33,588 nt of DNA, taken from assembly GCF_004010195.1 (NCBI RefSeq), contig NC_057717.1, positions 103,775,658 through 103,809,245 of the forward strand, given 5' to 3'. Positions 1,213 through 30,024 of the stretch are shown here, piece by piece (the stretch's first letter is position 1; each line of letters starts with the position of its first letter). The position numbers and the translations under genes are program-made. Source of the stretch: Chiloscyllium plagiosum (lineage: Eukaryota). The notes under the pieces were generated by a model, which was given only the letters and a program-made list of their open reading frames with translations, had not been told where the DNA came from and did not search any database.

Positions 1213-1637
1213 CTGTGGTACCAATTTTTAAGAAAGGTGGTAAGGAAAAGGGATCTACAGACCAGTGGGACTGACTTCAATGTTGGAGTGAATCCTGAGG
1301 GACAGGATTTGCATGTATTTGGAAAGGCAAGGACTGATTACAGATGGTCAACATGGCTTTGTGTGTGGGAAATCATGTCTCACTAACTTGACTGAGTTCT
1401 TTGAAGAAGTGACGAAGAGCATTGATGAGGGCAGAGCGCAGATGTGATACGGGCTTCAGTAAAGCATTCAAAAGGGTTCCTCGTGGGAGACTGGATAGCA
1501 AGTGTAGATCTCACGGAATATAGGGAGAACTGGCCATTTGGATACAGAACTGGCTCAAAGGTAGATGACAGAGGGTGGTGAGTGGAAGGTTGCTTTTCAG
1601 ACTGGAGGCCTGTGACCAGTGGAGTGCCACAAGGATC
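1213..1637 (+). mobile_element. CR1 LINE ORF2 (reverse transcriptase) fragment, degenerate
   Basis: Across frameshifts: VVPIFKKG..YRPVGLTS..QHGFVCGKSCLTNLTEFFEEVT..FSKAF..WIQNWL..WRPVTSGVPQGS, the N-terminal part of CR1 RT. Confidence 0.9.
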
Positions 1638-1855
1638 ATAGAGTCATAGAGCCATAGAGACGTACAGCATGGAAACAGGCCCTTTGGTCCAACCCGTCCA
1701 TGCCAACCAGATATCCCAACCCAATCTAGTCCCACCTGCCAGCACCCAGCCCATATCCCTCCAAACCCTTCCTATTCATATACCCATCCAAATGCTTCTT
1801 AAATGTTGCAATTGTACCAGCCTCCTCCACTTCCTCTGGCAGCCCATTCCATATA
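1637..1855 (-). mobile_element. CR1/HER1 LINE 3' end
   Basis: Reverse complement of the CR1 3'UTR with a (TCTATGAC)-like tail, read as catagagtcatagagccatagag on +; matches the copy at 15521-16190. Confidence 0.85.
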
Positions 1856-1856
1856 T

Positions 1857-2066
1857 GAGATGGAAATGTGTTGCTGGAAAAGCGCAGCAGGTCAGGCAGC
1901 ATCTAGGGAACAGGAGAATCGACATTTCGGGCATTAGCCCTTCTTCAGGAGGCTAATGCCCGAAACGTCGATTCTCCTGTTCCCTAGATGCTGCCTGACC
2001 TGCTGCGCTTTTCCAGCAACACATTTCCATCTCTGATCTCCAGCATCTGCAGACCTCACTTTCTCC
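1857..2066. mobile_element. Penelope-like element pseudo-LTR remnant forming an inverted repeat, with a hammerhead-ribozyme-like core
   Basis: 83-bp arms 1857-1939 and 1951-2033 (1 mismatch) around an 11-nt loop. Minus strand reads CTGAAGA-A-GGGC-TAAT-GCCC-GAAA. Same family at 13786-13966. Confidence 0.7.
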
Positions 2067-2700
2067 TACAAGGATGATGACAAGGGGGAGCATAAGGTGT
2101 ATAAGGATGTACGTGGAACAGTATCAAAGGATGAAGGAGAAGTTCAATATGGTGGGTCTCCAAATGAAGGGTTATGTGGAAATGGGCTGTTGGGATAGAG
2201 TGAGGTAAAAGGGGATATTATAGCACACGGAGGTGCATCCTGTTGCGTTCCCTGCCATCACTTGCTGTTCTCTAAGTGCTAAATGCAATTGAAAAATAGC
2301 CTGGGCAATGTCCAGCGATCCATGTATGGGTGATATTAGTACACTGAAGAAGCAAATACATGAAGCATGGATTTGCAAATTGCGGCTACATTTCATTTGC
2401 AAACATTTCTTCTCACATATGCAATGCATCCAGAGCAATAGTGCGGATGCATTAAATATTGTCAAAGGCAGATTGCACTGTGCCATTGATGCTGGCTAAA
2501 CTAACATTGTTACGTTTATGATGCAGAAGTTCACAACAATAACTTAAAAGGAGATATATGCTGGCCAAATGCACCCCATCACTTGTGAAACATTCGATTT
2601 TCAAGGAGGGGAGCATCATTGCATTAGAAGCAATGAGCAAAGACCACCATCTAAGGTCTTTCTGCTAAAGTACAATGAGGATTCAATCAGTTGTCAGACC

Positions 2701-3220
2701 CTTGTTGTGAAACTTGAAATAGTTCAGAAAAGATTTACAAGGATGTTGTCAGGGTTGGAGGATCTGAGCTACAGGGAGAGGCTGAACAGGCTGGGGCTGT
2801 TTTCCCTGGAGCTTCGGAGGCTGAGGGGTGACCTTATAGAGGTTTACAAAATTATGAGGGGCATGGATAGGATAAATAGACAAAGTCTTTTCCCTGACAT
2901 GGGGGAGTCCAGAACTAGAGGGCATAAGTTTAAGGTGAGAGGGGAAAGATTTAAAAGAAGGTGGTGATTTTAAAAAGGGGCAATTTGTTCATGCAGATGG
3001 TGGTACGATTTTGGAATGAGTTGCCAGAGGAAGTGGTGGAGGCTGGTACAATTACAACATTTAAAAAGCATTTGGATGGGTATATGAATAGGAAGGGTTT
3101 AGAGGGAAATCGGCTAAGTGCTGGAAAATGGGGCTAGATTAGTTTGGGATATCTGGTCGGCGTGGACAAGTTGGACCACAGGGTCTGTTTCCGTGCTGTC
3201 CACCCCAATGACTCTGTGAT
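2701..3220 (+). mobile_element. CR1/HER1 LINE 3' end (ORF2 C-terminus + 3'UTR)
   Basis: VVKLEIVQKRFTRML..LSYRERLNRLGLFSLELRRLRGDLIEVYKIMRG..RTRGHKFKV, then the CR1 3'UTR ending in atgactctgtga. Confidence 0.92.
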
Positions 3221-3355
3221 GAGGAGAGTGACAGGAATTGTGACAATCTTAAGAGTTAACATCTTCACACCATCTCTCATCTCACTACTAGGAAACAGTA
3301 TTGTAGAAACTAGCCATTCCAGGGAGACCATGGCTGGGTTAAGCCTCAGAGAGTA

Positions 3356-3414
3356 CCTCAGCAGAGAACGTGACACATTTTGGAAGTTGTGATTCAGCCA
3401 CTCGATGATGGTCA
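3356..3414 (-). CDS. Candidate neck/stalk exon of the putative type II membrane receptor (3' boundary uncertain)
   Basis: Strong acceptor ctccttccctcacAG|. Phase-1 reading (M)TIIEWLNHNFQNVSRSLL with an N-glycosylation sequon NVS, in phase with exon 5832-5906. Donor ambiguous (AG|GTACTC near 3356, or A|GTGAGA near 3285). Confidence 0.35.
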
Positions 3415-3915
3415 CTGTGAGGGAAGGAGCTGGTTGGAAACAGATCTGTAACCTAGATGAGCAGAAACCAACAGCTCATTTTGATACTATCTTGCATGAG
3501 TCAGGCAGATCAGATCAGTTTGAATCTCTCCACAATCCCACCTCATCTGATAGCAAGACAGAAAGAACATGTCCTCGCGCAGTTTGGGGATGTTTTGAAG
3601 ACAGTGGCAGCCTGTTTTGCTTTAAGGCCATCCAGGGCAGTGAGGGGGTGAAGGCAACAAAAAGACATTAACCTTTCATGTGACATTCACGCCTTACTGC
3701 TGCTCCATGTGCTGGCAGCTCACTCAGGGCTCAATGAGGGGACTGGGAAGCTTCACACTTTCTGCTGTTACACTCAGTGGGCAGACGTGTGTGATCTGCT
3801 CCGCTCTCCCAAAACATGGAGACTCACAATGTCAGGATATACCTCCGCCTAAATCTGTCACAATTCCCAGAAAGTGCCCTGGTGCCTTACCTAAATGATA
3901 CTCTGACACCTCCCC

Positions 3916-5230
3916 AACCTGGTTATATGGCACCTTACCTACCTGGTACTCGGGCACTCTCCCTACCTGGTACTCTGGCACATTACCCAACCTGGTATTC
4001 TGGCACTCTACCTACCTGGTACTCTGGCACCTGACCTACCTGGTATTCTGGCACTCTACCTACCTGGTACTCTGGCACCTGACCTACCTGGTATTCTGGC
4101 AATAACCCTACCTGGTATTCCAGCACACTTCCAACCGGTTGCTCTGGCACCTTACCTACCTGCTACTCTGGCACTCATCCTACCTGGTACTCTGGCACCC
4201 GACCTATCTGGTACTCTGGCACTCTCCCTACCTGGTATTCTGGCACTCATCCTACCTGGTACTCTGGCACCCGACCTACCTGCTACTCTGGCAATAACCC
4301 TACCTGGTATTCCGGCACACTTCCAACCGGTTGCTCTGGCACCTTACCTACCTGGTACTCGGGCACTCTCCCAACCTGGTATTCTGGCACCTTACCTACC
4401 TGGTACTCGGGCACTCTCCCAACCTGGTATTCTGGCACCTCACCTACCTGGTACTCGGGCACTCTCCCAACCTGGTATTCTGGCACCTCACCTACCTGGT
4501 ACTCTGGCAGACTCCCAACCTGGTACTCTGGTATCCTCCCTACCTGGTACTCTGACTCCCTGCCTACCTGGTACTCTGGCACCCTCCCTACCGGGTACTC
4601 TGGCACTCTCCCTACCGGGTACTCTGGCACACTCCCAATCTTGTACTCTGGCACTCTCCCTACCTGGTACTCTGGCATCCTCCCTACCTGGTACTCTGGC
4701 ACCCTCCCTACCTGGTACTCTGGCACCCTACTTACCTGCTACTCTGGCACCCTCCCTACCTGGTACTCTGGCACCCTACTTACCTGCTACTCTGGCACCC
4801 TCCCTACCTGGTACTCTGGCACCCTCCCTACCTGCTACTCTGGCATCCTCCCAACATGGTACTCTGGCACTCTCCCTACCTGGTACTCTGGCACTCTCCC
4901 TACCTGGTACTCTGGCACACTGCCCTACTTTTTACTCTGGCACCCTCCCTAGCTGGTAGTCTGGTGCCTTACCGATCTGGTACTCTGGCACTCTCCCTAC
5001 CTGGTACTCTGGCACTAACCCCACCTGGTATTCCGGCACACTTCCAACCGGGTACTCTGGCACCCTCCCAACATGGTACTCTGGCACTCTCCCTAGCTGG
5101 TAGTCTGGTGCCTTACCGATCTGGTACTCTGGCACTCTCCCTAGCTGGTAGTCTGACACCCTCTCAACGTGGTACTCTTACACCCTACCAACCTGCACTC
5201 TGGCACCCTATGTATCTAAAACTCTGGCAC
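3916..5230. repeat. 24-bp minisatellite (consensus TACCTGGTACTCTGGCACCCTCCC)
   Basis: Roughly 50 tandem units of 23-25 bp with degenerate edges; produces the VPEYQVGR and YSGTLPTW pseudo-ORFs. Confidence 0.95.
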
Positions 5231-5695
5231 CATACTCTTGTAGTACTCTAACACCCTACCTTATCAGCACCTTACCTAGCTGGTATCCTGCGCTATACTG
5301 ACATAACTGGCCAATTCAGGTAATTGTTGGTATGCAATTACCTGAAACCCTACCAACCTGATACACTACTCGACTGACACCGTACCCACCTGGGACTCAT
5401 TCAGATGGCATCCTAACCCACACTTGACTTATGCAGCTACCATTTCACAGGAGCAGTTGCATTCTTGCCATTTCAACACAGGATACCCAGGGGAAGTAAG
5501 AGACTGAGCTTTACCTGCCCTCACCTCACTCCCAACAAGCCTGCCCAACTGGATCGAAGGTCCACTCCGGATTTGTGCAGGAGCTGCGATACCAGTCAGA
5601 AAGGCCAAGCCCTTTCCCCGGTGTAACAATGTTAGGGTGGAGTTGCACTTTGACTGTGTTTACCGCATCTTGCAAAACCCAGCCCCGACACATGG

Positions 5696-5726
5696 GAGAC
5701 AGAGAGAGAAAGAGAGAGAGAGAGAG
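5696..5726. repeat. (GA)n microsatellite
   Basis: gagacagagagagaaagagagagagagagag; a similar tract lies at 7009-7047. Confidence 0.9.
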
Positions 5727-5831
5727 TAAGCATGTACTGCTCCCTACTCTGTTGGCAGATACTGGAGGGGAGTTTGGAACGACTGAAAACAAAAAGCGAA
5801 AATAACTTTGAAAAATGAATCGCAAACTCAC

Positions 5832-5906
5832 TAATAGTTTGATCCTTGTTGTGTTCAGTCTTTAATGTCGTCTTAGCTGGGCTCACTTTCTGTTCCACAT
5901 TCGAAA
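5832..5906 (-). CDS. Candidate 75-nt symmetric (phase 1-1) stalk exon of the putative receptor
   Basis: Acceptor cactctctttcAG|, donor A|GTGAGT. Open frame (I)SNVEQKVSPAKTTLKTEHNKDQTI joins in frame to the TM exon. Confidence 0.5.
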
Positions 5907-6239
5907 CTGAAAGAGAGTGAAATCGACCTCCATCACTGAATAGGACAACGTAAGAAAATTTGGAATATATGGAACATAAGAAAATTTGAAACAATTTTCT
6001 CCTTAAAGAGTCAGAAGTGTTTTGTTTCAGGTTTATCAGCTTTATTTCCAACGTCCTCACCTCTCACATCCTACTCTTGGTGGTCATCCCTGTTGGTCCT
6101 TGTGTTTTCTGCATTGTGGAAAGGTGGTGTTGGGACTGCACCTTCTCAAGCACTGAGTTGCCAGAGATTGGGTGCTAAAGAAGGCTCTGCAGGTACCACT
6201 CTCACCTAGGGTGCCAGTTCCCGTCCCACCCTAGCACTT

Positions 6240-6530
6240 GGTATTAAATCTATCAAAGCTGACTCTATGCAGCGGTACAGACAGAGTGCTACACTGTCTT
6301 TTGGGATGAGAGATGCTCAGACTGCATGACTGGCTAGCCATAAATTCCCGACAGCACTGTCTTGAACAAAGGCAGGGGAACTTTGACCAATGCCCAGACC
6401 ACATCAATAAGCCAGCCTGCCTGCTGATTACCTGAATAGTACTATGGGATCTTGCTGTGTACAAACTGGCTAGTGTGGAGCAGAACAATTTACAAAAGAC
6501 TGGCTTCTGGAAGAAATGCACTTGAACTGT
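6240..6530 (+). mobile_element. Degenerate Deu-domain SINE (SacSINE1/AmnSINE1-like)
   Basis: agagtgctacactgtcttttgggatgaga ... aaaggcaggggaact ... gggatcttgctgtgtacaaactggc resemble Deu-domain blocks. Confidence 0.55.
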
Positions 6531-7324
6531 CACAACAATAAAGGGGGCAGGCTAAGTGCTGGAAAGTGGGACTTGTGTAGGTTTGGAGTCAGCAGGAATT
6601 CAACGGGCCAAAGGGCTCCTTTTGTTCTGTATGATTCTCCGAAATGCTTTCAGCCGGCTGGTTAATTTGCCCTCCTTTACCTTTTCACGTCTGCCTGATG
6701 TTATAAAGCTGAAAGAGACTTGGGGTGGGACCTGGTTGAGACAGAGGGGTTTGTCAGCTCACAGGGCAGCGAGAGATCACTGCATCCTCTCCCTCTGAAC
6801 TGAGAATGAAGACATTTTGCCTTCTTTCTTAAGAGACTGGGTTTTTGCTGAGGCAGGGGAGTTATCAGAAAGTTGCAAGTGCAGCTCATCCCTGCGTTAG
6901 AAAGACACCTTACAGAATTTACACAGACGGTACTCTTCGCACATGGACTCAGATTGGGAGCCAATTCTCTGCGGGGGCTGTCCCTGTGAAATGGAACCAG
7001 AAACATTTAGAGACAGAGAGACAGACAGAGAGAGAGAGAGAGAGAGAAACACGTTTGAGAAACTCGACCCAGCAGAGGCTCAGACAGGGAGAAAATGTCA
7101 CTGTCCCCTCCCTTGTTGCTCGGGTGGGCAACCTGGGCAGTGGTGAAACAAAATGGAAATCTCTCAAGGGTATTTTGAAAACATTGGTTGAGTTTGGTCA
7201 TTAATTTGTATCTCTGTTGCATTTCAGCTTGGTGAGTTGAGACTTCCGTAAGAAGTTCCAAGTTACTCTGGGGGATGATCTGTGTGAATGGTCATTTCTC
7301 CTGGATTTCCACAGCAGGTGATTG

Positions 7325-8267
7325 TGTCACAAAGATTAGATTAGATTCCCTACAGTGTGGAAACAGGCCCTTCAGCCCAACCAGTTCACACCGACCCTCC
7401 GAAGAGTAACCCACCCAGACCCATTTCCCTCTGACTAATGCACCTAGGACTATGGGCAATTTAGCATGGCCAATTCACCCTGACCTGCACATCTTTGTGA
7501 CTGTGGGAAGAAACCGGTGCACCCGGAGGAAATCCACGCAGACACGGGGAGAATGTGCAAACTCCACACAGAGAGTCGCTCGAGGCTGGAATTGAACCTG
7601 GGACCCTGGTACTGTGAGGCAGCAGTGCTAACCACTGAGCCACCACACCGCCCTTTCTTTCTAAAAGCTGTTCCTTTTCTCAAGGAGACTCTGTCCTTGA
7701 TTTTTCTCAGAGGGGTAATAAACCGGGCCGGGCTCCAATCAGTCTGGTTTGGCACAGAGATGACAAGGATTTTGAGAGGCCTTTTGTTTATATGTAAACA
7801 GGTGGGACTCCAGGCCAAAGTCGTCATGCTTTAGAAGTATAATGGAAGGGGAGTGGTCAGCTCTCTAGCTGAGTAGTTTTAGTTCAGCCCAGAGCTAGTT
7901 AGGAGTTCAACAGTGTGGAAACTCTCTCTCTCTCTTTCTGCCCTTCTAACTTCAACCTGTAAGTATGTGTTCCATTTATACTGGGTTTTAAAGGGAGTTT
8001 GCTTATTGGGACTGTTGTGTGTATTCGGAACAGCATAATTAAGTCTTGTTTGGATAGACTGAGTTCTGTAGGGACTCTTTTTTCTGTTCTTTGTGTTTCA
8101 TTGTGTAATTTTGTGAATAAATTTTTATCTGTTTTAAAATTTAGTAGTCAACCTAGCTATCTTACTCCAGGTAATTTCACTGTGCACTTACTGAAACTAA
8201 TTGCCAAGTTATGGTCTGGGGCTACCTGCTCAATCATATTTTGAGTGGTCCGGCCGAGTCCATAACA
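7325..8267 (+). mobile_element. Solo LTR (Gypsy/ERV-like) with 4-bp TSD ATTG, interrupted by a SINE
   Basis: Starts TGTCAC (7325) and ends ATAACA (8267). Flanked by ATTG at 7321-7324 and 8268-8271. Contains AATAAA near 8116. Confidence 0.7.
7334..7653 (-). mobile_element. HE1-like V-SINE (tRNA-derived) nested in the solo LTR
   Basis: Minus strand: GGGCGGTGTGGTGGCTCAGTGGTTAGCAC (A box), GGTTCAATTCC (B box), V-domain GTGGAGTTTGCACATTCTCCCCGTGTCTGCGTGG, HER1-like tail (AATCT)n. Confidence 0.92.
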
Positions 8268-8390
8268 ATTGGAAGGCGTCCTACGCCACACACTTTTATA
8301 AAAAAAAGGTAGCAGAAAACAGCTCATTTTTGTTCACTTCCCTCGCGTGTCCCTCACGGGCCGTTCCTGGAGTCAAGGTGAAATACTTAC

Positions 8391-8504
8391 TTCTCGAAAT
8401 GCAAACCACAAGCAGAACAAACATCACGAGAAAAGAGATGATCAACATCATGGATTTTCCCAAAATAATGGTCCATCCTCCACACGAAATCTCCCTTCCA
8501 CAAC
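8391..8504 (-). CDS. Transmembrane exon (114 nt, phase 1-1) of a putative type II membrane receptor
   Basis: Acceptor tttctttcgttcaaAG|, perfect donor A|GTAAGT. Translates (G)CGREISCGGWTIILGKSMMLIISFLVMFVLLVVCISR, with a 20-aa hydrophobic stretch. Confidence 0.7.
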
Positions 8505-8583
8505 CTTTGAACGAAAGAAATCGGGTGTGAGCAGTTTAGTTCAGCGCAGATCAATTCTCCAATCCCCACCAGCAGAAGGGAAG

Positions 8584-8840
8584 TGTTCCACAAGAGACTT
8601 TAAAGTCAGCCTTCACTGCCCCTCACTAACTTTGGTATGTTGGTGGTGGGTCTGCTTCTTAAACTGATGTGGCCCCCATAGTGTTGTTAGGAAGAGAGTT
8701 CCCGAATTTTGACCCAGTTACAGTGAAGGAATAGTGACATATTTCCAAGTCAGGACGGTGAGTGGCTCAGAGGGGAACTTGCAGGGGGGTGGGGTTCCCA
8801 TGTATCTGCTGCCCTTGTCCTTCCAGATGGAAATGGCCAT
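8584..8840 (-). mobile_element. 3' end of an L2/Crack-like LINE; inverted relative to the copy at 9107-9850
   Basis: Reverse complement of ~9600-9848. The ORF track shows near-identical peptide CSTRDFKVSLHCPSLTL(V/I)CWWWVCFLN on opposite strands. Confidence 0.75.
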
Positions 8841-8914
8841 CTGAGGGAGTGTTGCTAGGCTGTAAACTGTTCTCAGCTTTCCTCTGCTTCTTGAGGACTG
8901 TCCAAGTTGGGTTA

Positions 8915-9076
8915 TTAAAGGATATTCAAGGTTAAGATAGATGGGTTTTTAAACAGTAAGGGCCACAGTAAGAATTATGGGGAAAAGGCAGGAAAGTAAT
9001 GCACTACCAGACTGCCATGATCTCACTGAATGATAAGAGTTGACTCGATGGGCTGAATGGCCAATTTCTGTGTCTA
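8915..9076 (+). mobile_element. Degenerate CR1 3'UTR fragment
   Basis: ttcaaggttaagatagatggg...tatggggaaaaggcagg...gccatgatctcactgaatg...gatgggctgaatggcc. Confidence 0.65.
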
Positions 9077-9106
9077 AATTTAACCGAATCCAGAAAATAT
9101 CCAAGC

Positions 9107-9850
9107 TTAGGCTGACAAGTGGAAATTATATCCATGCCATACAAATACCAGACAGTGACCCTCTCCAATAAGAGCCAATCTAACCACCACCCCTTGATAT
9201 TCATTGGTGTTACCATCACTGAATTCCTCACTATTCCCATTCTGGGGATTACCACGGACCAGAAACTGAACTAGACTTACCACATAAACACAGCAGCTAC
9301 AAGAGCAGGTCAGAGGCTGGGAATACTGCAACGTGTAACTCCCCTCCTGACTCCCCTAAGCCCATCCACCATCTGCAAGGCACAAGTCAAGAGGGTGATG
9401 GAATACTCCCCACTTGCCCTGGATGGGGGCAGCTCCAACAACACTCAAGAAGCTCAACACCATCCAGGACAAAGCAGCCCACTTGATTGGCAGTGCATCC
9501 ACTCCCTCCACCACCGACGCTCAGTAACAGCAGTGTGTCCCATCCACAAGATGCACTGCAGCAATTCACCAAAGATCCTCAGACAGCACCCTCCAAACCC
9601 ATGACCACTTCTATCTAGAAGGACAGGGGCAGCAGAGACATGGGAACACCACCCCCTGCAAGATCCCTCCTGAGCCACTCACAATGCTGACTTGGAAATA
9701 TATCACTGTTACTTCACTGTCAGTGGGTCAACTCCCTCCCTAGCAACACTGCGGGAGCCACATCAGTTTAAAAAGCAGACCCACCACCAACATATCAAAG
9801 TTAGTGAGGGGCAATGAAGGCTGACTTTAAAGTCTCTTGTGGAACAGTGG
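9107..9850 (+). mobile_element. L2/Crack-like LINE ORF2 C-terminus and 3' end, degenerate
   Basis: ILGITTDQKLN*TYHINTAATRAGQRLGIL...ICKAQVKRVMEYSPLAL..SLHHRRSV; stops and frameshifts present. Confidence 0.8.
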
Positions 9851-10696
9851 TAATGTTCCAACCTCTGAGTCTGGAGACCCAGTTTCAAGTCTCCCCTAGT
9901 CCAGGGATGAGTCTTAACATTCCTGAGCACCTCGATTAGAAAATATGTAAATGCTGACCTTACCAGCAATACTCACAACCTGTGAGGTTTTTTTGTTTAT
10001 AAGTATCACAGCATCACTCAAAGTCAGTCTGTCAAACTTGTGCTGAACTATCTACTCATCTCACTCTCCTCATGCTCGGTTTCTTATCCCTGAAAGCCTT
10101 TAACTCCCTTCTGGAATGATTTTGATTGTTCACCCACAGTAGGGGTGACAAAGTGGCAATGTCCCAGTCTCTGGACCAGAAACTCCAGGTTCAAACCACA
10201 ATGCAGGAGGGCCTCTGCAGTAAATGATTGAATGCTCATAGTGTAATTCCTTCCAATAGACTGGCCAACAGTGGTGCAAAGGGAATTTCCCGATCAGCCC
10301 TCCTGCAGACGTCCGCCATATTGCCAATAAGCATGGACCAATCACACGGCCCCAGTCTTTGGACATGGGAGGAAATGGCAGATTTCATGAGGAGCTTATA
10401 GCAGAGATGGTCACGTTCAAATCACCCTCTGCACACCTTCTCTCTAGCCGCCCATCCATTGTTTTGGGGATTATCTTAAACCTCTACAGTAGCCACTGAC
10501 TGAAAGTGCAAGAGAGTGCAACTAGAAACACACCCTCGAAAATAAGAGAACTCTGGCCAGGAGATGACAAGAAGCAATCAAAATGGCCTCTTGATGCTGA
10601 ACCATTTAGAAGTTTTGTTAACACAACCCTCAGGTTCCAATCAAGGGAGGATCATAACCAATGGATGCGCAGTTAAGAAAATTGACAAGACAACTT

Positions 10697-11016
10697 GGGG
10701 CAGCGCAGTGGCTCAGTGGTTAGCACTGCTGCTTCATAGCACCAGGGTCCCTGGTGCGATTCCAGCCTTGGGTGACTGGCTGTGTGGAGTTTGCACATTC
10801 TCCCTGTGTCTGTTGGGTTTCCTCTGGGTGTTTCGGTTTCCTCCCACACTCCAAAGATGTGCAGGTCAGGTGAACTGGCCGAGTTAAATTGCCCGTAGTG
10901 TTAGGTGCATTAGTCAGAGGGATATGGGTCTGGGTGGGTTACTCTTTGGAGGGTCAGTGTGGACTGGTTGGGCTGAAGGGCCTGTTTCCATTCTGTAGGG
11001 AATCTAATAAAAAAAA
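10697..11016 (+). mobile_element. HE1-like V-SINE
   Basis: gggcagcgcagtggctcagtggttagcac..gtggagtttgcacattctccc..cctgtttccattctgtagggaatctaataaaaaaaa. Confidence 0.92.
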
Positions 11017-11059
11017 GCCCAAGTTGAGAATGGAAGGTCTCTTTCTTCCTCACAGCTTT

Positions 11060-11345
11060 CTTTTATTCGTTCACAAGATGAGGATGACACGAGACAGACC
11101 AGTATTTATTGCCCATCCCTAACTGCCCAGAGGGCAGTCAAGAGTCGACCCCATTGCTGGAGGTCTGGAGTCACATGGAAGCCAGACAGGGTAAGGATGG
11201 CAGATTTCCTTCCTTACAGTACAGATGGGTTTTTCTGACAATGAATACATGGTTATCATTAGACTCCTAATTCCAGATTTTTATTAAATTCAAATTCCTC
11301 CATCTGGTACCCAGGCCGTTACCCGGGTCTCTGGATTATCGGCGC
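11060..11345 (-). mobile_element. SINE with L2/Crack-like tail (same family at 12945-13280 and 32217-32520)
   Basis: Three homologous copies share atttattgcccatccctaa-tgcccagagggcagt-aagagtc...ggtaaggatggcag...ttccagat...aattcaa. Confidence 0.7.
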
Positions 11346-11974
11346 ACATGGCCATTGTCTTCCTGAGTTGTTGCAGTTTGAGTCACACTGAAAAGCCACT
11401 GAAAGCAGATTCAGTCGCAATTTCCAAAAGGAAAATTTTAAAATGGAAAGAGAAAGTGAAATTGCCGGGCCTTGGGGAAGGCGCAAAGGGAACTGTGACT
11501 AATTAAACCAATCTTTCAGAGGGCTAGCACAGCCACAAGGGGCAGAAAGGCCCCCTGCTCTGTGTGTGATATGAATGCACATGGCATTGATCATGTTAAT
11601 GAAGGAGGAACATTGGCCAGGACAGGAGGAGAACTCCCACCAAGCAGGAGATGTAAGGTGCGGAAAATCACAGAAACATCCTTTTCCACAATACACAGAG
11701 TGCTCTGACACTGGCATCAAAGTGGGAAATGTACATTAATTAGAAAAGTTGGCATAAAATATGAAAACATGAATCAGAGACTCTCACAAACAAAAAAAGT
11801 TAATTGAAGATTAATATCTTTGGCCTTTTCTACGTGTTAAACAGATCTTTGGCCGGTTTTATATGTTAAGATCAGGAGAGACCAGATTTAATTCAAATAG
11901 AGGAGGCTCCCAGGTGACTTGAGAGAAGTGTTTAGAATGTGAGCAAGGTGCAATGGAGTGGACTTTATTCGTGA

Positions 11975-12900
11975 TTAAGGGTTGACAGTAAGAAAGTGCA
12001 GGATTTGGGAAGTAACGTTGTACAGGATATTGGTGAGACCTTGGCTGGAGTATTGTGTCCAGTTCTGGTCACCCAGTTATAGGAAGGATATGATGAAGAA
12101 GAGATTTACCAGGACTTCGCCAGGAATGGAAGATTTGAGTTATAAAGAAAGACTAAATAGGCTGAGATGTTTTTCACTGGACTGCAGGAGGTTGAGAGAT
12201 GATCTGATTAGATTACTCACAGTGTGGAAACAGGCCCTTCGGCCCAACAAGTCCACACCGACCCTCCAAAGGGCAACCCACCCAGACCTATTCCACTACA
12301 TTTACCCCTTCACCTAACACTACGGGCAATTTAGAATGGCCAATTCACCTAACCTGCACATTTTTGGACTGTGGGGGGAAACCGGAGCACCCGGAGGAAA
12401 GCCATGCAGACACGATGAGAATGTGCAAACTCCACACAGACAGTTGCCCGAGGCGGGAATTGAACCTGGGTCTCTGGTGTTGTGAGGCAGCAGTGCTAAC
12501 CACTGAGCCACCGTGCCACCCACAAGGTGGATTCTGATAGAATTTATAAAATAATGCGAGCTATAGATAGAGTTAATGGTAGTTGTGCACTCCCTAGAGT
12601 GGGGTATTTCAAAACTGGGGGCACATTTTTAAGGTGAGAGGAGAGAGATATTAAAAAGGCATAAGGGGAAAATTGTTTACCCAGAGGATGGTTCACGTGT
12701 GGAATGACCTTCCTGAGGAAGTGATGGATGCAGGAACAGTTACAATGTTTAAAAGACATTTGGATAAGTTCATGAATAGGAAAAGTTTGGAAGGATATGG
12801 GCCAGGAGCAGGCAGGTGGGACTAGTTTAGTTTGGGATTAGGGTAAGCATGGACTGGTTGGACCGAAGGGTCTGATTCCATGCTGGATGAATCTATGACT
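11975..12900 (+). mobile_element. CR1/HER1 LINE 3' end split by an HE1 SINE
   Basis: LYRILVRPWLEYCVQFWSPSYRKD..LSYKERLNRL..RRLRDDL | SINE | resumes ctgatagaatttataaaataatg..; tail tctatgact. Confidence 0.9.
12209..12521 (-). mobile_element. HE1-like V-SINE inserted in CR1
   Basis: Full tRNA head and V-domain on minus; possible TSD TCTGAT at 12203-12208 and 12533-12538. Confidence 0.9.
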
Positions 12901-12944
12901 GTATTAACTCTTATTGTAGAGAAGTGTGCAGGACAGTTCTCTTT

Positions 12945-13280
12945 CTCTGATTCACTCATGGGGTATGGACATCACTGGCAAGGCCAGCATTTATTGCCCA
13001 TCCCTAATTGCCCAGAGGGCAGTTAAGAGTCAACCACGTTGCTGTGGGTCTGGAGTTACATGTAGGTCAGACCAGGTAAGGATGGCAGATTCCTTCCCTG
13101 AAGGACGTTAGTGAACCAAATGGGTTTTTCCAACATCAATGGTCTCATGGTCACCATTAGACTCTTAAATCCAGATTCTTTACTGAATTCAATTTCCACC
13201 ATCTCCCATGCTCCAGAACATTAGCTGAGTTTCTGGATTAAGAGTCTAGTGATAATACCACTAGGCCATTGCTTCCCCTA
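12945..13280 (-). mobile_element. SINE with L2/Crack-like tail
   Basis: Homologous to 11060-11345 and 32217-32520; tRNA-like head on minus (ggggaagcaatggcctagtggtattatcactagact). Confidence 0.75.
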
Positions 13281-13609
13281 ATAGAGGGTTTTCACAGATG
13301 GTTGCAATACCATGGACTAAAATCAGAAAGTACTGGAGAAACTCACTGGGTATTATAACATCTGTGGAGAGAGGGGTTACAAAGAGGAATCGTTCTGCAC
13401 ATTAACACTCTCCACTGTTGCTGAGTTGCCTTTCTGGCTTAATAATAATGTGAACTGAATGGATTCTTTCATCAAATAATACCTTTATAACAATATGTTA
13501 AAGTAAAGAAGGTGTCTGTAATGCAGTCAGTATCAAAGATTTATATTGTGCAAGGACAGTTAAAGCTCCTGGGGTGGGGGTGGGGGGGGGGAGGGGGGGG
13601 GAGTTCTTT

Positions 13610-14295
13610 TGATGTAATTTGATTTATTTTTGTTGCAAAGCTTTGAATGGCATGCAGTACAGGCAGATCATAGCGTACAAAGTGAATTAGGGTAATAGCA
13701 CAGAGTGAGGAATACAATGTAACAGCTGCAGAGGAGGGGCACGGAGACCAAGATCTACATTAAATTGGAAACTTGAGAGGTCCATCAGAGCTGAAAATGT
13801 GTTGCTGGAAAAGCGCAGCAGGTCAGGCAGCATCCAAGGAACAGGAGAAGGGCTTATGCCTGAAACGTTGATTCTCTTGCTCCTCGGATGCTGCCTGACC
13901 TGCTGCGCTTTTCCAGCAACACATTTTCAGCTCTGATCTCCAGCATCTGCAGTCCTCACTTTCTCCAGGTCCATTCAGAAGTCTAATAACAGCAGGGAAG
14001 AAGCTGTTCTTAAATCTGTTGGTCCGTATGTTTAAGCTTTTGTATGTTCTATCCAACAGAAGAGGTTGGAAAAGAGTGTAACCAGGGTGGGAGGGGTCTT
14101 TGATGATGTCGGCTGCTTTCCCGAAGTAGAGATGGGATCAATGGAAGAGAGGCTGGATTATGTGACGGACTGGGCTGTGTTCACAACTCCCTCTCGTTTC
14201 TTACGGCCCAGAGCAGAGCAGTTGCCGTAACAAGCCGTGAAACATCCGGATAGGATGCTTTCTAGAGTGCATCTAGAAAAATTAATCAGACAGTT
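13610..14295 (-). mobile_element. Rex1/Babar LINE 3' fragment, interrupted by a Penelope-like insert
   Basis: Minus translations LINFSRCTLESILSGCFTACYGNCS..VVNTAQSVT and RTNRFKNSFFPAVIRLLN are typical Rex1 RT C-terminal motifs. Confidence 0.85.
13786..13966. mobile_element. Penelope-like pseudo-LTR palindrome with 8-bp TSD
   Basis: Inverted arms ~13784-13849 and ~13872-13937; flanked by AGGTCCAT at 13778-13785 and 13967-13974; same family as 1857-2066. Confidence 0.75.
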
Positions 14296-14834
14296 CTCCC
14301 CTTCTACTGACCCGGTTCCAGCACAAACCTCCAGGCAACGGGGCAAAAGTTTCCGGACTCTGCATTCCCCGATTTTCCACCCCAAGGCTGTGACCAGTGT
14401 TTCCAAAATTACTCCAAATTTACCCAACCTTTCACTGTTTTTAGTGGGACAAAGGTCAGTGGAAACTGATTTACCATAAACATAGAGCAATTTAACTGTT
14501 ATAAATTCTGCCAAAGTGCAAAATAAGCGGCATTATCCAGTGGGTTATTCTAACAATAACTCTCAATACAACAAGCCAGTCCCTGTCTCTCTTTCCCTCA
14601 GATCAAGGTTAGATTTAGAGTTCCCTCAATGCTGTATACTTTCCAACATTATCTATAAACAATTGGTTTCGCATTGATCTGTTACTGGGTGGTGCAATTA
14701 AAATGGTGTTAGATGTTGGATAAAGTTAGATACATTTGTTTTGTACACTATAAAAATTTTAACCAATGCAGTTACCAACATTCTCCTGGAATAAAGGATA
14801 AATTACTCCAATTTTAATAAACTAGAGATTTCCT

Positions 14835-14927
14835 CAGAAGGGTCACTCTACCTGAAACGTTAACTCTGATTTCTCTCCACAGATGCTGCCAGATCTGCTG
14901 AGCTTTTCCAGCAATTTCTGTGTTTGT
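14835..14927 (+). mobile_element. Diverged Penelope-like pLTR fragment
   Basis: gaagggtcactctacctgaaacgttaactctg...agatgctgccagatctgctgagcttttccagca, related to the two palindromic copies. Confidence 0.6.
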
Positions 14928-15520
14928 TAGTGATTTTTTGTTTAATTGTTTCTGAGTGTTAATCCCTAACTGAGAATTTCACGAAGCAACATTTGGATCT
15001 AATCTGACAGACTAGTTTCTGCCCTTTGTACAAACCGTGTCTCCAACCCGGTCTGATTTCTAGCCCTTTGAAGTCATGGATGGGAACAGTGGCCATTCGA
15101 TTTGTGGTCCTTTGATCATTCCCACATCACACTCTACAAAGAAACATGTTACCACCAACAAAATGCTCCTAAATTCTCACACACTCTAGAATCTGATTCT
15201 TCTTGCCGTTGGTATTTTTTACGCGTTGTGGTAACGAGTTCAAGACGAAAACCTCGCTCAAAATGTGCCTTTTTGTGTGGCAACCTGCAAATTCTGCATC
15301 ACCAGACAAAAAGGGTTTTCTACAATATTTCAGATCAATCCCCTTACTTTCTTTGTTCAGTGAAATATCTCAGTGACAGAAGAGCAGAAAACTGCCTTTG
15401 AAATATCGCCCATTTAAAATCCCTCAGCTGGTTCCATCCCTTATTAAAAAGATTGATTTTTCATGTAAACACCACAACGTTACCTCTCAAATTAGGAAAT
15501 TTATCGGTCAACTCCATCAA

Positions 15521-16190
15521 GAACAGAGCCATAGAGATGTACAGCACAGAAACAGACCCCTCGGTCCAACCCGTCCATGCTGACCAGTTATCCTGAATTA
15601 ATCTAGTCCCATTTGCCTGCGTTCATCCCACATCCCTCTAAACCCTTCCTATTCATAAACCCATCCAAATGCCCTTTAAATGTTGCAATTGTACCAGCCT
15701 CCATCACATCCTCTGGCAGCTCATTCCATACACGTACCACCCTCTGCGTGAAAACGTTGCCCCTTAGGTCTCTTTTATATCTTTCCCCTCTCACCTTAAA
15801 CCTATGCCTTTATTTTTGAACTTCCCTACTCTGGGGAAAAGATCTTGTCTATTTGCCCTATCTGAGCCCTTCACGATTTTATAAACCTCTATAAGGTCAA
15901 CCCTTAGCATCTGACGCTCCAGGGAAAACAGCCCCAGACTGTTCAGCCTCACCAACCCTGGCAACATCCTTGTAAATCTTCTCTGAACCCTTTCAAGTTT
16001 CACAACATCCTTCCTATAGCAGGGAGACCAGAATTGCAAGCAGCATTCTAAAAGTGGCCTAACCAATGTCCTGTACAGCTGCAACATGATCTCCCAACTC
16101 CTGTACTCAGTGCACTGACTAATAAAGGCAAGGGTTCTAAATGTCTTCTTCACCACTCTGTCTACCTGGGACTGCACTTTCAAGGAACTA
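15521..16190 (-). mobile_element. CR1/HER1 LINE 3' end
   Basis: SLKVQSQVDRVVKK..LQLYRTLVRPLLECCLQFWSPCYRKDVVKLERVQRRFTRML..FTQRVVRVWNELP plus 3'UTR. Confidence 0.93.
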
Positions 16191-17051
16191 ATAGTCTTGC
16201 ACCATTTGCAAATCCTGCTTTCCCTCCGTCCTGGATGGTGGAAGTGTTCAGACAAGAGAAAGCTAGTCACCTCTTGCTTTTCCCTGCCACCACGCAAGAA
16301 GAGATGAGAAGCTAGGACTGTTCTCCAGCAACATCTCAACATCTTCAAAGTGCCACTACAGACACCCGTAAAAAGATCATAGTCACTTGGAAGGACTTGG
16401 ATAGAGTGAGTGAAGGGAAACAGTTTGCAATGACAGGAGGGTTGGAAGTCGGTGAGGGGGGGCAGCTTTAAAGTAACTGAAAACTGAAGCAGAGAGAGAG
16501 GGTGAAGGGAATTTTTTTTAACACAGCAAGTTATTGCGATCTCTAACGTACAGCCCAACAGAACTCGAGAAGCAGATTTGGCAACAGTGGGGCAGGAAAC
16601 ATCAAGGAAGACGATTGGCAGCATTGTGTTAGTGTCAGCCCCGCATTCATCCTTTCAGCTCCCTGCCAAGCCCCCTCTGTACAAGTGCCCCGCTGACTTC
16701 GCCATCATCAAGCCTTTCCCTGATTCCCTTCAGACAGTGACTAGTGAACCTGCTCCCAACCTGGGCAGTACTTTCAAGACCTTACTGTGTTGAAAAATAA
16801 AAGACGGCACTTTTTGTGAAACATTCTGACACGCTTGCGCTCCCTGTGGGGGACAGAATGTCCTCTCTCACCCATCGCTCGAAATGGCTTCTCTCCATCC
16901 ACCTATCAACACTCCCTCAGGATTATAAACGGTCCAGTCAGATTGAACCGTGATCCCCCCACATTAGGAGCTGGTTGGTTTGGGGGGGGGGGGGGGAGAG
17001 AGGGTGGGGGAGGGGTGGTGGCACGCGGTGATCCCAGGACCCACTCTTTAC

Positions 17052-17254
17052 CTTGGGATCTTCCTGCCCGGCCACTGCTCTGCCGGTGGATATCGCAGTT
17101 GTTGTAGATGGTCTCGTTCTCCCTGTGGTCCCGGAGAATATGGAAGTTGGTGTATGTTGGCTCGTGAGGCATGGTCTCCGGCATGGCACGGACCTGGCCA
17201 GCTGAGTCTGCCCTTTCTAGCGAGGTGCTCCAACTGAGCTCAGGGCACATGAGC
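17052..17254 (-). CDS. Candidate N-terminal cytoplasmic exon of a type II receptor (C-type-lectin-like), with two YxN motifs
   Basis: Frame MCPELSWSTSLERADSAGQVRAMPETMPHEPTYTNFHILRDHRENETIYNNCDIHRQSSGRAGRSQ(G). Donor CAAG|GTAAAG is phase 1 and joins in frame to the TM exon. Possible acceptor ttgttctgtAG| at 17255. Candidate ATGs at 17250, 17184 and 17172. Confidence 0.6.
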
Positions 17255-17327
17255 CTACAGAACAAGTGGGCAGGACCTTCAATGTCTGCTTCATGCATCA
17301 TGCTGCTCTCTGAAACGCAGGTTTTCT

Positions 17328-17667: not shown

Positions 17668-18016
17668 CACGCACACGCGCACACACAGACGCAGGCACAC
17701 ACACAAACACTCACACACACAGACATGACATACACACAAACACACAGACACACATACACACACACATACACACACAAACACACACAGACATAACACACAC
17801 AAACACAGACACGCACACGCATGCACACACACATGCACACACACATGCACACAAACACTCACACACAGACATAACACACCAGACACACAGAGACATGCAC
17901 ACACACACAGAGACACGCACACACACATAGACACACACATGCACATAGACTCTCACACACAGACACACACACAGACACACATACACACACATGCACGCGC
18001 ACGCACGCACACACAC
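17668..18016. repeat. Degenerate (CA)n microsatellite
   Basis: About 350 bp of cacacaca/cagaca/catgca. Confidence 0.95.
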
Positions 18017-29649: not shown

Positions 29650-30024
29650 CATAGAATCCCTACAGTGTGGAAGCAGGCCATTCAGCCCATCAACTCCATA
29701 CAGACCCACCAAAGAGCATCACACCCAGCCACCTACCCCACCTCCCACATCTGTAACCTTACCTTCCCCATAGCTAGTCCACCTCGACGGCAAATCCCTT
29801 GTCACTACGGAGCAATTTAGTGTGGCCAATCCACCTAAATTGCATAACCTTTGGAGTGTAAGACAAAAGCAAGGATGAAACCAGAGCCCCTTTGATGAAA
29901 CCCCACACAGACACGGGGAGAATGTGCAAACTCCACACACAGACAGTCGCCTGAGGCTGGAATCGAACCTGGGTCTGTGGTGCTGTGAGGCAGCAGTGCT
30001 AACCACTGAGCCTTCATGCTATCC
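29650..30024 (-). mobile_element. HE1-like V-SINE (diverged)
   Basis: tRNA head ggctcagtggttagcactgctgcc..ggttcgattcc on minus, V-domain, tail gggattctatg. Confidence 0.88.

What the first reader, a model, noticed from the sequence alone, without database searches (positions are those of the whole stretch)
3356..17254. Hidden minus-strand gene for a type II membrane immune-type receptor, not recoverable from the ORF track
Seen in sequence: four splice-bounded segments on the minus strand chain in phase 1 without stops. The chain reads MPETMPHEPTYTNFHILRDHRENETIYNNCDIHRQSSGRAGRSQ|GCGREISCGGWTIILGKSMMLIISFLVMFVLLVVCISR|ISNVEQKVSPAKTTLKTEHNKDQTI|MTIIEWLNHNFQNVSRSLL. Established: the order Tyr-motif tail, TM, then phase-1 neck exons with an N-glycan sequon is the architecture of type II C-type lectin receptors (CD209/CLEC4/CLEC17A/NK-complex). 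Inference: this is a shark lineage-specific lectin-like receptor whose recognition domain lies left of the window. That domain is not seen here, so the family call is provisional.
Basis: partly seen in the sequence, partly recalled or inferred. Interest (0 to 1): 0.75.

Follow-up and report, generated by a model that had tools for sequence, protein, structure and literature searches.

The report
Shark lectin-type receptor missing its lectin
The minus-strand gene is real but is already in the public annotation as an uncharacterized bamboo-shark protein, and it turns out to be a membrane receptor descended from the C-type lectin receptors that keeps a conserved tyrosine-bearing tail, membrane anchor and helical stalk while its sugar-binding domain has shrunk to a stump.

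Summary
They match the first three coding exons of NCBI XP_043550901.1 ('uncharacterized protein LOC122552273 isoform X2', Chiloscyllium plagiosum, 304 aa). I rebuilt that protein exactly from nine exons spanning about 43.6 kb. The fourth exon (3414-3357) has no support. It is one of 1,629 chance-level candidates in that intron, shifts the frame and matches no relative. The true next exons lie left of the window.

The protein is type II: a tail with two YxN(F/C) motifs, one membrane helix, three 24-25-residue stalk repeats (one exon each) and an 83-residue end. That end is homologous only to about the first 49 positions of a C-type lectin domain. It gives no Pfam Lectin_C match, and none was found in 150 left-flank frames.

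Relatives with the same tail occur in 9 of 10 shark and ray species. Only the horn shark copy ('CLEC10A-like') keeps a scoring Lectin_C domain.

The lectin-receptor call is therefore right by descent, but the expected recognition domain is not there. I could obtain no RNA evidence. Interest is moderate.

The parts
17052..17301 (-). Coding exon 1 as in the NCBI model (250 nt). It encodes the whole cytoplasmic tail. The ATG at 17301 is the first in the open frame.
17143..17160 (-). First tyrosine motif, P-T-Y-T-N-F (residues 48-53 of P0001). It has the YxxPhi / YxN form and is like YENF of CLEC10A.
   Evidence: Present in 9 of 10 species. The YENF passages were read in PMC7404283 and PMC4709716.
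17095..17109 (-). Second tyrosine motif, I-Y-N-N-C (residues 65-69). Its tyrosine lies exactly 16 residues after the first tyrosine.
   Evidence: The Y-to-Y spacing is 16 in 9 of 10 species.
8391..8504 (-). Coding exon 2 (114 nt, phase 1 to 1). It encodes the conserved juxtamembrane GCGREISCGGW and the membrane helix.
   Evidence: Conservation is shown.
8398..8454 (-). Transmembrane / signal-anchor helix (residues 101-119, mean Kyte-Doolittle 3.04). It has no charged residue.
   Evidence: AlphaFold2 gives a helix at 100-134 with pLDDT about 88-93.
5832..5906 (-). Coding exon 3 (75 nt, phase 1 to 1). This is the first extracellular stalk segment.
   Evidence: It is present in the Chiloscyllium and Hemiscyllium models and absent from the three Stegostoma isoforms.
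3357..3414 (-). It is rejected as a coding exon of this gene, being a chance AG..GT open segment inside intron 3.
   Evidence: It is absent from P0001-P0005.
3899..5209 (.). 24-bp tandem repeat, 54.6 copies, inside intron 3.
1..5831 (-). Window part of intron 3. The intron is 9,763 nt in all and includes 3,351 N immediately left of the window. Exon 4 follows at L009:6068-5997.

Best explanation
**What it is.** The window holds the 5' third (coding exons 1-3) of a nine-exon, about 43.6-kb minus-strand gene. This gene is NCBI LOC122552273 of Chiloscyllium plagiosum.

**Protein layout.** It encodes a single-pass type II membrane glycoprotein of an elasmobranch-wide family that descends from the group II C-type lectin receptors (the CLEC4 / CD209 / CD23 / ASGR-CLEC10A kind).
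- N-terminal cytoplasmic tail with two strictly spaced tyrosine motifs: PTY(T/S)NF, then (I/V)Y(N/S)N(F/C) with its tyrosine 16 residues after the first.
- A cysteine-bearing juxtamembrane stretch.
- An uncharged membrane helix.
- An alpha-helical stalk of 24-25-residue repeats, each on its own 72-75-nt phase-1 exon. The repeats arose by tandem duplication of 2-3-kb units.
- An 83-residue glycosylated end, which is the remnant of the first third of a C-type lectin-like domain. The rest of that domain is gone.

**Inferred mechanism.** The stalk holds the protein as an oligomer at the cell surface. The membrane-distal stump cannot bind sugar the way a C-type lectin does. Whatever the ectodomain meets, the conserved tail does the work. 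The first motif is a YxxPhi signal of the YENF/YQDL kind that drives endocytosis of CLEC10A and ASGR1. Once phosphorylated, both YxN motifs could recruit SH2 adaptors.

**Shown versus inferred.** Shown: exon structure, homology, domain loss, conservation of the tail. Inferred: topology (from sequon distribution and the lack of a signal peptide), oligomerisation, endocytosis or signalling, and expression.

**Confidence.** About 0.8 for the identity, about 0.4 for the tail mechanism. The figure given is for the whole statement.
For: **Gene model**
- P0001 is 100% identical to the exon-1 peptide and comes from a contig of the same length as the window's contig.
- It is rebuilt exactly from nine GT-AG exons.

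**Family**
- A profile of five orectolobiform sequences, searched against 1.84 billion representatives, found 13 proteins at E<=1e-3.
- Ten of the 13 come from elasmobranchs and share the juxtamembrane stretch and membrane helix, and nine of those ten also share the tail.

**Descent from lectin receptors**
- The Heterodontus member has Pfam Lectin_C at 34.4 bits against a cut-off of 22.6 (its isoform X1 scores 34.3). Its alignment with P0001 runs from the tail into the CTLD start at 4e-22, with Stegostoma at 4e-31 and with Carcharodon at 3e-46.
- hhalign of the post-neck region (4 sequences) against 5 CTLDs gives probability 83% and P 8.8e-6, covering CTLD columns 2-49 only. All 20 column-shuffled controls gave P>=0.016.

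**Loss of the domain**
- No Lectin_C in P0001-P0003 at E<=10.
- None in 150 left-flank minus-strand frames of 30 aa or more.
- Lectin_C scores over the cut-off in 1 of 10 species.
- Hemiscyllium, from an independent assembly, ends with the same last exon and stop.

**Topology**
- 1 sequon lies before the helix and 7 after it. Across the family the counts are 0-1 before and 2-11 after.

**Stalk**
- AlphaFold2 gives helices at 149-166 and 172-220 with pLDDT about 70-88. It then gives a low-confidence hairpin and helix, and residues 254-304 are disordered.
- The neck exons share their flanking intron sequence.

**Tail**
- The Y-to-Y spacing is 16 in 9 of 10 species.
- A neighbour-joining tree of tail plus helix follows the species groups.
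- YENF of CLEC10A and YQDL of ASGR1 are described as endocytosis motifs, and YENF also as hemITAM-like (passages of PMC7404283 and PMC4709716).
Against: - No RNA evidence was obtained, so the junctions rest on the NCBI model and on conservation.
- Two N runs in the left flank could hide an exon: 1,530 nt lying 450 nt beyond the last exon, and 200 nt elsewhere.
- The charge difference across the helix is weak (+1 on the N side, +2 on the C side). Topology therefore rests on the sequons and on family analogy.
- The +3 residue of the second motif is C in orectolobiforms, so it is not a YxxPhi signal there.
- Neither motif is a canonical ITAM, ITIM or hemITAM.
- The last exons differ between Stegostoma isoforms and Chiloscyllium. 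That would also fit relaxed constraint on the stump.
- The structure model is poor overall (mean pLDDT 53.6).
- NCBI lists an isoform X1 of this gene that I did not recover.
Confidence: 0.7

Rival explanations
1. This is an intact type II C-type lectin receptor whose complete recognition domain lies further left and is simply missing from the NCBI model.
For: The Heterodontus relative has a full Lectin_C domain. N runs of 1,530 and 200 nt in L011 and 3,351 nt in L009 could hide exons. Short CTLD exons are hard to detect in six-frame scans (caveat printed).
Against: No Lectin_C appears in 150 minus-strand frames covering L010:1-2035, all of L011 and L012:3714-8839. There is no Lectin_C hit near the locus genome-wide. 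Heterodontus P0008 finds only exon 1 in this genome. Hemiscyllium, from a different assembly, has the same terminal exon and stop, and Stegostoma models also stop early. The first CTLD cysteine is already lost in Chiloscyllium.
Confidence: 0.06
2. This is a decaying relic. The gene lost its lectin domain and is drifting towards a pseudogene, so the protein, if made at all, has no function.
For: The CTLD is truncated, and the C-terminal exons differ among Stegostoma isoforms and from Chiloscyllium. The stump is predicted to be disordered. No RNA holder was available to show expression.
Against: The reading frame and all nine GT-AG splice pairs are intact. The tail, juxtamembrane stretch and helix are conserved between sharks and rays, with invariant tyrosine spacing. 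Sequons in the stump (NKT, NGT, NNT) are invariant among the five orectolobiform sequences. CTLD-less forms persist in 9 of 10 species.
Confidence: 0.12
3. The topology is not type II. The N-terminal segment is extracellular (type III), or the hydrophobic stretch is not membrane-spanning.
For: The charge bias around the helix is weak or slightly reversed (+1 N side, +2 C side in P0001). No experimental topology exists.
Against: The sequon distribution is 1 before and 7 after the helix, and 0-1 against 2-11 across the family. The aligned relatives are named by NCBI as members of the CD209, CLEC4E and OLR1 families, which are known type II receptors (established knowledge; alignments). The cytosolic-type tyrosine motifs sit on the N side.
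Confidence: 0.03

Closest known systems
[quoted passage not shown]
   Same: It has the same tail with two YxNF motifs 16 residues apart, the same juxtamembrane CGR..SCG stretch and membrane helix, and a repeat stalk. The alignment with the window's protein runs into the CTLD start (4e-22). It groups with the other sharks in the tail+helix tree.
   Different: It keeps a scoring Lectin_C domain of about 90 residues with WIG and the C-terminal cysteines. The window's protein stops after about 49 CTLD-equivalent positions.
CLEC10A (MGL) and ASGR1, mammalian group II endocytic lectin receptors
   Same: Both are type II, with an N-terminal YxxPhi endocytosis motif close to the start (YENF in CLEC10A, YQDL in ASGR1; passages of PMC7404283), a helical stalk and an uncharged membrane helix. 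The shark motif YTNF/YSNF differs from YENF at one position.
   Different: The mammalian proteins have one such motif and a Ca2+-dependent Gal/GalNAc-binding domain. The shark protein has two motifs and no working lectin domain. The tail itself gave no hit outside elasmobranchs. The name 'CLEC10A-like' is NCBI's automatic label. The Heterodontus CTLD matches solved CLEC4F, DC-SIGNR, CD23 and DC-SIGN chains better than CLEC10A (7e-8 to 2e-6 against 1.6e-4).
CD23 (FCER2) and DC-SIGN/DC-SIGNR (CD209 family)
   Same: Each has a stalk of short tandem repeats that vary in number, between the membrane and the lectin domain. The family profile touches DC-SIGNR neck+CRD weakly (E 0.51). The repeat-per-exon layout of CD23 is recalled and comes from no call.
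   Different: The repeats here are 24-25 residues, not 21 or 23, and show no sequence similarity beyond helical character. The lectin domain is missing.
Ly49 / NK-complex lectin-like receptors
   Same: Type II with a stalk. Pfam Ly49 N-terminal region gives a sub-threshold match in Stegostoma (E 0.019, 15.9 bits against a cut-off of 31.5).
   Different: The match is below the cut-off. There is no ITIM and no charged membrane residue. No lectin-like neighbours were found around the locus.

Membership tests
C-type lectin-like domain proteins (Pfam PF00059 Lectin_C) | Match to the Lectin_C profile at or above the curated cut-off (22.6 bits) | tested here: not met
   There is no Lectin_C row for P0001-P0003 even at E<=10, nor for P0005. 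None of 150 left-flank minus-strand frames matches at E<=1. The genome-wide scan has no hit near the locus.
C-type lectin-like domain proteins (Pfam PF00059 Lectin_C) | N-terminal CTLD segment (CPxxW...CYxF hairpin, first helix, first core cysteine, ...L..IN..EQ) | tested here: met
   hhalign gives probability 83% and P 8.8e-6, with query 3-63 on CTLD columns 2-49. All 20 shuffled controls gave P>=0.016. The BLASTP alignments reach this segment. Stegostoma keeps CPEKW...CFHF.
C-type lectin-like domain proteins (Pfam PF00059 Lectin_C) | WIGL strand, long loop region and the C-terminal cysteine pair of the core fold | tested here: not met
   These columns are empty or unalignable for P0001, P0002 and P0004 in alignment A2, while P0008 and P0013-P0016 fill them. 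The protein ends 20 residues after the aligned part. AlphaFold2 gives residues 254-304 as disordered.
C-type lectin-like domain proteins (Pfam PF00059 Lectin_C) | Ca2+/sugar-binding motifs (EPN or QPD, and WND) | tested here: not met
   The region that would carry them is absent from the protein. The motif names are recalled, established knowledge.
Group II type II C-type lectin receptors (CLEC4 / CD209 / CD23 / ASGR-CLEC10A) | Type II orientation: no signal peptide, one signal-anchor helix, C-terminal part outside the cell | tested here: inconclusive
   Consistent: one helix with Kyte-Doolittle mean 3.04, and sequons 1 before and 7 after it. But the charge bias is weak, and no topology predictor or experiment was available.
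Group II type II C-type lectin receptors (CLEC4 / CD209 / CD23 / ASGR-CLEC10A) | Sequence homology to recognised members | tested here: met
   4e-22 to the Heterodontus CLEC10A-like protein. The family profile hits Mobula CD209-like E at 1.3e-7, Myotis OLR1 at 4e-4 and Callorhinchus CLEC4E-like at 4.5e-4, each over helix + stalk + CTLD start. The stalk's helical composition may inflate these last three.
Group II type II C-type lectin receptors (CLEC4 / CD209 / CD23 / ASGR-CLEC10A) | Alpha-helical repeat stalk between membrane and CTLD | tested here: met
   There are three 72-75-nt phase-1 repeat exons plus one unused in-frame copy, and they share flanking intron sequence. Helices are predicted at 149-166 and 172-220. 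Oligomerisation was not tested.
ITAM / hemITAM / ITIM-bearing immune receptors | Canonical motif: YxxL/I-x6-12-YxxL/I (ITAM), DEDGYxxL (hemITAM) or (I/V/L/S)xYxx(I/V/L) (ITIM). These definitions are recalled. | tested here: not met
   The motifs read PTYTNF and TIYNNC (F or C at +3) with 12 residues between them. This is ITAM-like in spacing only.
Elasmobranch YxNF-tail family (unnamed; NCBI 'uncharacterized protein' in 9 species) | PTY(T/S)NF, then Y(N/S)N(F/C) with its tyrosine 16 residues on, then the CGG-type juxtamembrane stretch and the helix | tested here: met
   The window's exons 1-2 encode all of these. They are shared by 9 of 10 species.

The most novel reading that the evidence does not exclude
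Sharks and rays carry a one-gene-per-species receptor lineage that began as a lectin receptor. It has lost the lectin domain several times independently: in rays, in carpet sharks, and in mackerel and ground sharks. All the while it has kept an invariant double YxN(F/C) tail, which would be a previously undescribed ITAM-like or dual-adaptor signalling module. On this reading the tail and stalk, not sugar binding, are the selected function, and the glycosylated stalk acts as a ligand or co-receptor.
Probability: 0.25. Interest if true: 0.55.

Novelty: new variant of a known kind. Interest (0 to 1): 0.36.

Why it matters
Cartilaginous fish are the oldest living vertebrates with adaptive immunity, and their innate receptors are barely described. 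This locus gives a named place to a set of 'uncharacterized' RefSeq proteins. They form one family, derived from group II C-type lectin receptors and present in both sharks and rays.

The family pairs a strictly conserved two-tyrosine tail with a lectin domain that is intact in one lineage and reduced or replaced in nine others. That makes it a natural experiment on what a lectin receptor does once it stops being a lectin. It also yields a testable candidate signalling or endocytosis motif.

It also shows that the method over-extends chains with chance splice-bounded segments.

Tried and rejected
- **RNA evidence.** None of the junctions could therefore be tested with reads.
- **Complex prediction** for three copies of the stalk was not available, so oligomerisation stays an inference.
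- **treekit** could not be loaded. I used a Biopython neighbour-joining tree with 200 bootstraps instead. It is midpoint-rooted and built on 95 residues, so it is only indicative.
- **Pfam on whole proteins** gave only sub-threshold coiled-coil or membrane noise.
- **PDB sequence searches** with the family profile and with P0004 gave nothing significant. The best hit was a chemoreceptor helix at E 0.019, and DC-SIGNR scored 0.51.
- **No fold search was run**, because the model of the stump is low-confidence.
- **Paralogues.** The exon 1 and exon 2 peptides and Heterodontus P0008 find only this locus in the genome.
- **Exon 4 as a decayed stalk repeat** was considered and dropped. Its acceptor context is unlike that of the repeat exons, and there is no similarity.
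- **Rfam** on the window gave 0 matches.
- **Earlier notes of this scan near the locus:** none.
- **Literature.** 0 papers hold 'LOC122552273'. The 3 papers holding 'Chiloscyllium' and 'C-type lectin receptor' are unrelated by title and abstract. A five-term search on shark type II C-type lectin receptors (12 of 282 listed) showed nothing on this family.
- **Isoform X1 of LOC122552273** was not recovered by the searches.

Full report
**1. The observation**

The four minus-strand segments are in the sequence as written. The window is G000:C8:103775658-103809245 of a 3.56-Gb genome.

A protein search with the exon-1 peptide (window 17053-17184, minus) returned three NCBI proteins:
- P0001, 'uncharacterized protein LOC122552273 isoform X2 [Chiloscyllium plagiosum]', XP_043550901.1, 304 aa, 100% identical, from a contig of the same length as the window's contig
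- P0002 from Hemiscyllium ocellatum (296 aa, 93%)
- P0003 from Stegostoma tigrinum (223 aa, 80%)

So the gene is not hidden. It is a RefSeq model without a name.

I fetched 60 kb to the left and 30 kb to the right of the window and mapped P0001 by tblastn. I then rebuilt it letter for letter from nine exons, all with GT-AG introns:

| Exon | Location (minus strand) |
|---|---|
| 1 | window 17301-17052 |
| 2 | window 8504-8391 |
| 3 | window 5906-5832 |
| 4 | L009:6068-5997 |
| 5 | L009:816-742 |
| 6 | L010:8726-8652 |
| 7 | L010:1799-1684 |
| 8 | L010:372-296 |
| 9 | L011:3743-3683 |

The exon 1 and exon 2 peptides occur only once in the genome, so they are not repeats.

**2. The fourth exon is chance**

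- The segment 3414-3357 is 58 nt long, so it enters in phase 1 and leaves in phase 2.
- Placed before the real exon 4, it shifts the frame and gives a stop six codons later.
- In the 5.8-kb window part of intron 3 there are 1,629 AG..GT segments of 40-150 nt that are open when entered in phase 1.
- Its peptide matches none of 27 stored proteins (best E 1.5).
- Its acceptor context is unlike the nearly identical acceptors of the true stalk exons.
- No protein recovered by the searches contains it.

I could not test it with reads (see section 8).

**3. The start codon**

The NCBI models of Chiloscyllium and Hemiscyllium start at the first ATG of the open frame (17301). The Mobula birostris model has a different N-terminus. 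The conserved sequence begins there.

**4. What the protein is**

*Tail.* Residues 40-100 of P0001 hold P-T-Y-T-N-F and then T-I-Y-N-N-C, with the second tyrosine 16 residues after the first.

*Juxtamembrane stretch and helix.* The tail is followed by the stretch GCGREISCGGW and by one uncharged hydrophobic helix (residues 101-119, mean Kyte-Doolittle 3.04).

*Topology.* There is no signal peptide-like start. One N-glycan sequon lies before the helix and seven lie after it. Across the family the counts are 0-1 before and 2-11 after. That fits an N-in, C-out (type II) orientation. The charge difference across the helix is weak (+1 against +2), so the topology is inferred, not shown.

*Stalk.* After exon 3 come three stalk repeats of 24-25 residues, each on its own 72-75-nt phase-1 exon. 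The 60 nt upstream and 40 nt downstream of these exons are visibly alike. A fourth, unused, in-frame 72-nt copy with AG and GT sits at L009:3348-3277. The stalk therefore grew by tandem duplication of 2-3-kb units.

*Structure model.* AlphaFold2 with the 14-row family alignment gives:
- the membrane helix at pLDDT about 88-93
- stalk helices at 149-166 and 172-220 at about 70-88
- a low-confidence hairpin (231-240) and helix (245-254)
- a disordered end (254-304, pLDDT about 30)

Mean pLDDT is 53.6, so only the helices carry weight.

**5. The lectin question**

Tests that failed to find a lectin domain:
- Pfam finds no Lectin_C in P0001-P0003, even at E<=10.
I scanned 150 minus-strand frames of 30 aa or more from L010:1-2035, all of L011 and L012:3714-8839. 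The only family match over its curated cut-off was a reverse-transcriptase fragment.
- The genome-wide Lectin_C scan has 35 hits, none near the locus.

Evidence that the family nevertheless descends from lectin receptors:
- A profile of the five orectolobiform sequences, run against 1.84 billion representatives, found 13 proteins at E<=1e-3.
- Besides Hemiscyllium and Stegostoma, these are 'uncharacterized' proteins of Carcharodon, Mustelus, Pristis, Hemitrygon, Narcine and Mobula birostris.
- More distantly (1e-7 to 6e-4, matching from the helix onward) come Mobula CD209-like E, Myotis OLR1, Callorhinchus CLEC4E-like and one unnamed protein.
- The Heterodontus protein has the same tail, helix and stalk, and a Lectin_C domain at 34.4 bits against a cut-off of 22.6 (its isoform X1 scores 34.3).
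- Its BLASTP alignment with the window's protein runs from the tail into the start of that domain (4e-22). With Stegostoma the value is 4e-31 and with Carcharodon 3e-46.

To test the stump itself, I aligned the post-stalk parts of four orectolobiform sequences and compared them by hhalign with five lectin domains. The result was probability 83% and P 8.8e-6, with 48 columns aligned and stump positions 3-63 falling on lectin-domain columns 2-49. All 20 column-shuffled controls gave P>=0.016.

So the stump is the first third of a lectin domain: the CPxxW...CYxF hairpin, the first helix, the first core cysteine and the '...L..INN..EQ' strand. Stegostoma still reads CPEKW...CFHF. Everything from the WIGL strand onward is missing.

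Lectin_C scores over the cut-off in 1 of 10 species of the family. I examined 16 isoforms in all.

**6. How old the family is, and how the domain was lost**

The double-tyrosine tail with 16-residue spacing is present in 9 of 10 species. The Mobula birostris isoform recovered has a different N-terminus.

A neighbour-joining tree of tail plus helix (95 residues, 200 bootstraps, midpoint root) separates rays from sharks. It groups the three carpet sharks, and it pairs Carcharodon with Mustelus. Heterodontus falls among the sharks.

If these are orthologues, the lectin domain was reduced more than once. The alternative is an old duplication, with the CTLD-bearing copy kept only in Heterodontus. 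I could not separate these two readings. No protein outside elasmobranchs matched the tail.

**7. How it probably works**

The first motif (YTNF/YSNF) is a YxxPhi signal one residue away from YENF. YENF is described as the endocytosis motif of CLEC10A and also as hemITAM-like. ASGR1 uses YQDL in the same place near the N-terminus (passages of PMC7404283 and of PMC4709716). Both shark motifs also read YxN, the preferred Grb2-SH2 site when phosphorylated. That preference is recalled and comes from no call.

The helix has no charged residue, so pairing with adaptor chains of the FcR-gamma or DAP12 kind is unlikely. This is an inference from established knowledge.

My reading is a stalk-held surface glycoprotein that internalises and/or signals through its own tail. 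Its ectodomain no longer binds sugar as a C-type lectin. I put about 0.8 on the identity (a real gene, type II, lectin-receptor-derived, domain truncated). I put about 0.4 on the tail mechanism.

**8. Limits**

- No RNA evidence could be had. No RNA holder was listed, and the single read-laying run laid nothing.
- N runs in the flanks could hide an exon: 3,351 nt adjoining the window's left edge, plus 1,530 and 200 nt in L011. However, Hemiscyllium, from another assembly, ends with the same last exon and stop.
- NCBI's isoform X1 of this gene was not recovered.

**9. Surroundings**

Within about 60 kb to the left and 30 kb to the right I saw no other lectin gene. Upstream, on the minus strand, lies a RasGAP-family gene with PH, C2 and RasGAP pieces in L017 and L016. 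LINE reverse-transcriptase and endonuclease fragments sit in the long intron between exons 6 and 7.

**10. Verdict**

The gene model is already public, so what is new is the family assignment and the pattern of domain loss. No paper in the library holds the locus name. Two broader searches showed nothing on this family.

Noticed in passing
window 19948-28591: A very large 18-bp minisatellite of about 480 copies at 81% matches, broken by three N runs (20934-21013, 22872-23233, 24616-24649). It starts about 2.6 kb upstream of the gene's first coding exon. It gives long spurious open frames on both strands.
   Followed up: partly
window 3899-5209: A 24-bp tandem repeat of 54.6 copies (78% matches) inside intron 3. 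It produces 200-350-aa open frames on the plus strand that are not genes.
   Followed up: partly
window 17668-18017: A (CA)n microsatellite of about 176 copies, a few hundred bases upstream of the annotated start codon.
   Followed up: no
window about 7464-7679, 10546-10900, 12323-12628, 29722-30170: A dispersed repeat seen as near-identical open-frame translations ('...AQWLALLPHSTR.PGSIPA...CGVCTFSPC...') in both orientations. It is probably a SINE family. Rfam gave no match at gathering score.
   Followed up: no
L009:3277-3348 (left flank, minus strand): An unused in-frame 72-nt duplicate of stalk exon 4 with an intact AG acceptor and GT donor (peptide SMVPDEVKLILDSLKAERSKAVN). It could be a cassette exon of another isoform.
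   Followed up: partly
L017:6787-7131, L017:3850-4470, L017:851-1150, L016:4471-4839 (right flank, minus strand): Exons of a RasGAP-family gene, in the order PH_RASGAP (1.9e-10), C2 (1e-8) and RasGAP (8.6e-5 and 3.3e-16). Its 3' end points towards the window.
   Followed up: no
L010:3550-4056, 5202-5597, 6730-7089; L011:6280-6750: LINE fragments (reverse transcriptase RVT_1 up to 9.5e-24; endonuclease Exo_endo_phos_2 8.2e-11) on the minus strand, inside introns of the gene and just beyond it.
   Followed up: no
L009:6650-10000 (adjoining window position 1): A block of 3,351 N directly left of the window edge, inside intron 3. Further N runs of 1,530 and 200 nt lie in L011, the first only 450 nt beyond the last coding exon.
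   Followed up: partly
L014 (about 50-60 kb left of the window): A GC-rich stretch (56.5%) with many regularly spaced minus-strand open frames of about 99 aa and faint LRR_10 matches (best 4.8e-5, below the cut-off). It looks like a long-period tandem repeat.
   Followed up: no
P0007 / P0017 (Mustelus asterias relatives): In Mustelus the place of the lectin domain is taken by tandem copies of a 19-residue Ser/Thr-rich unit (AELPTTSNAEESIVTRSVA). This mucin-like end is a different way of losing the domain.
   Followed up: no
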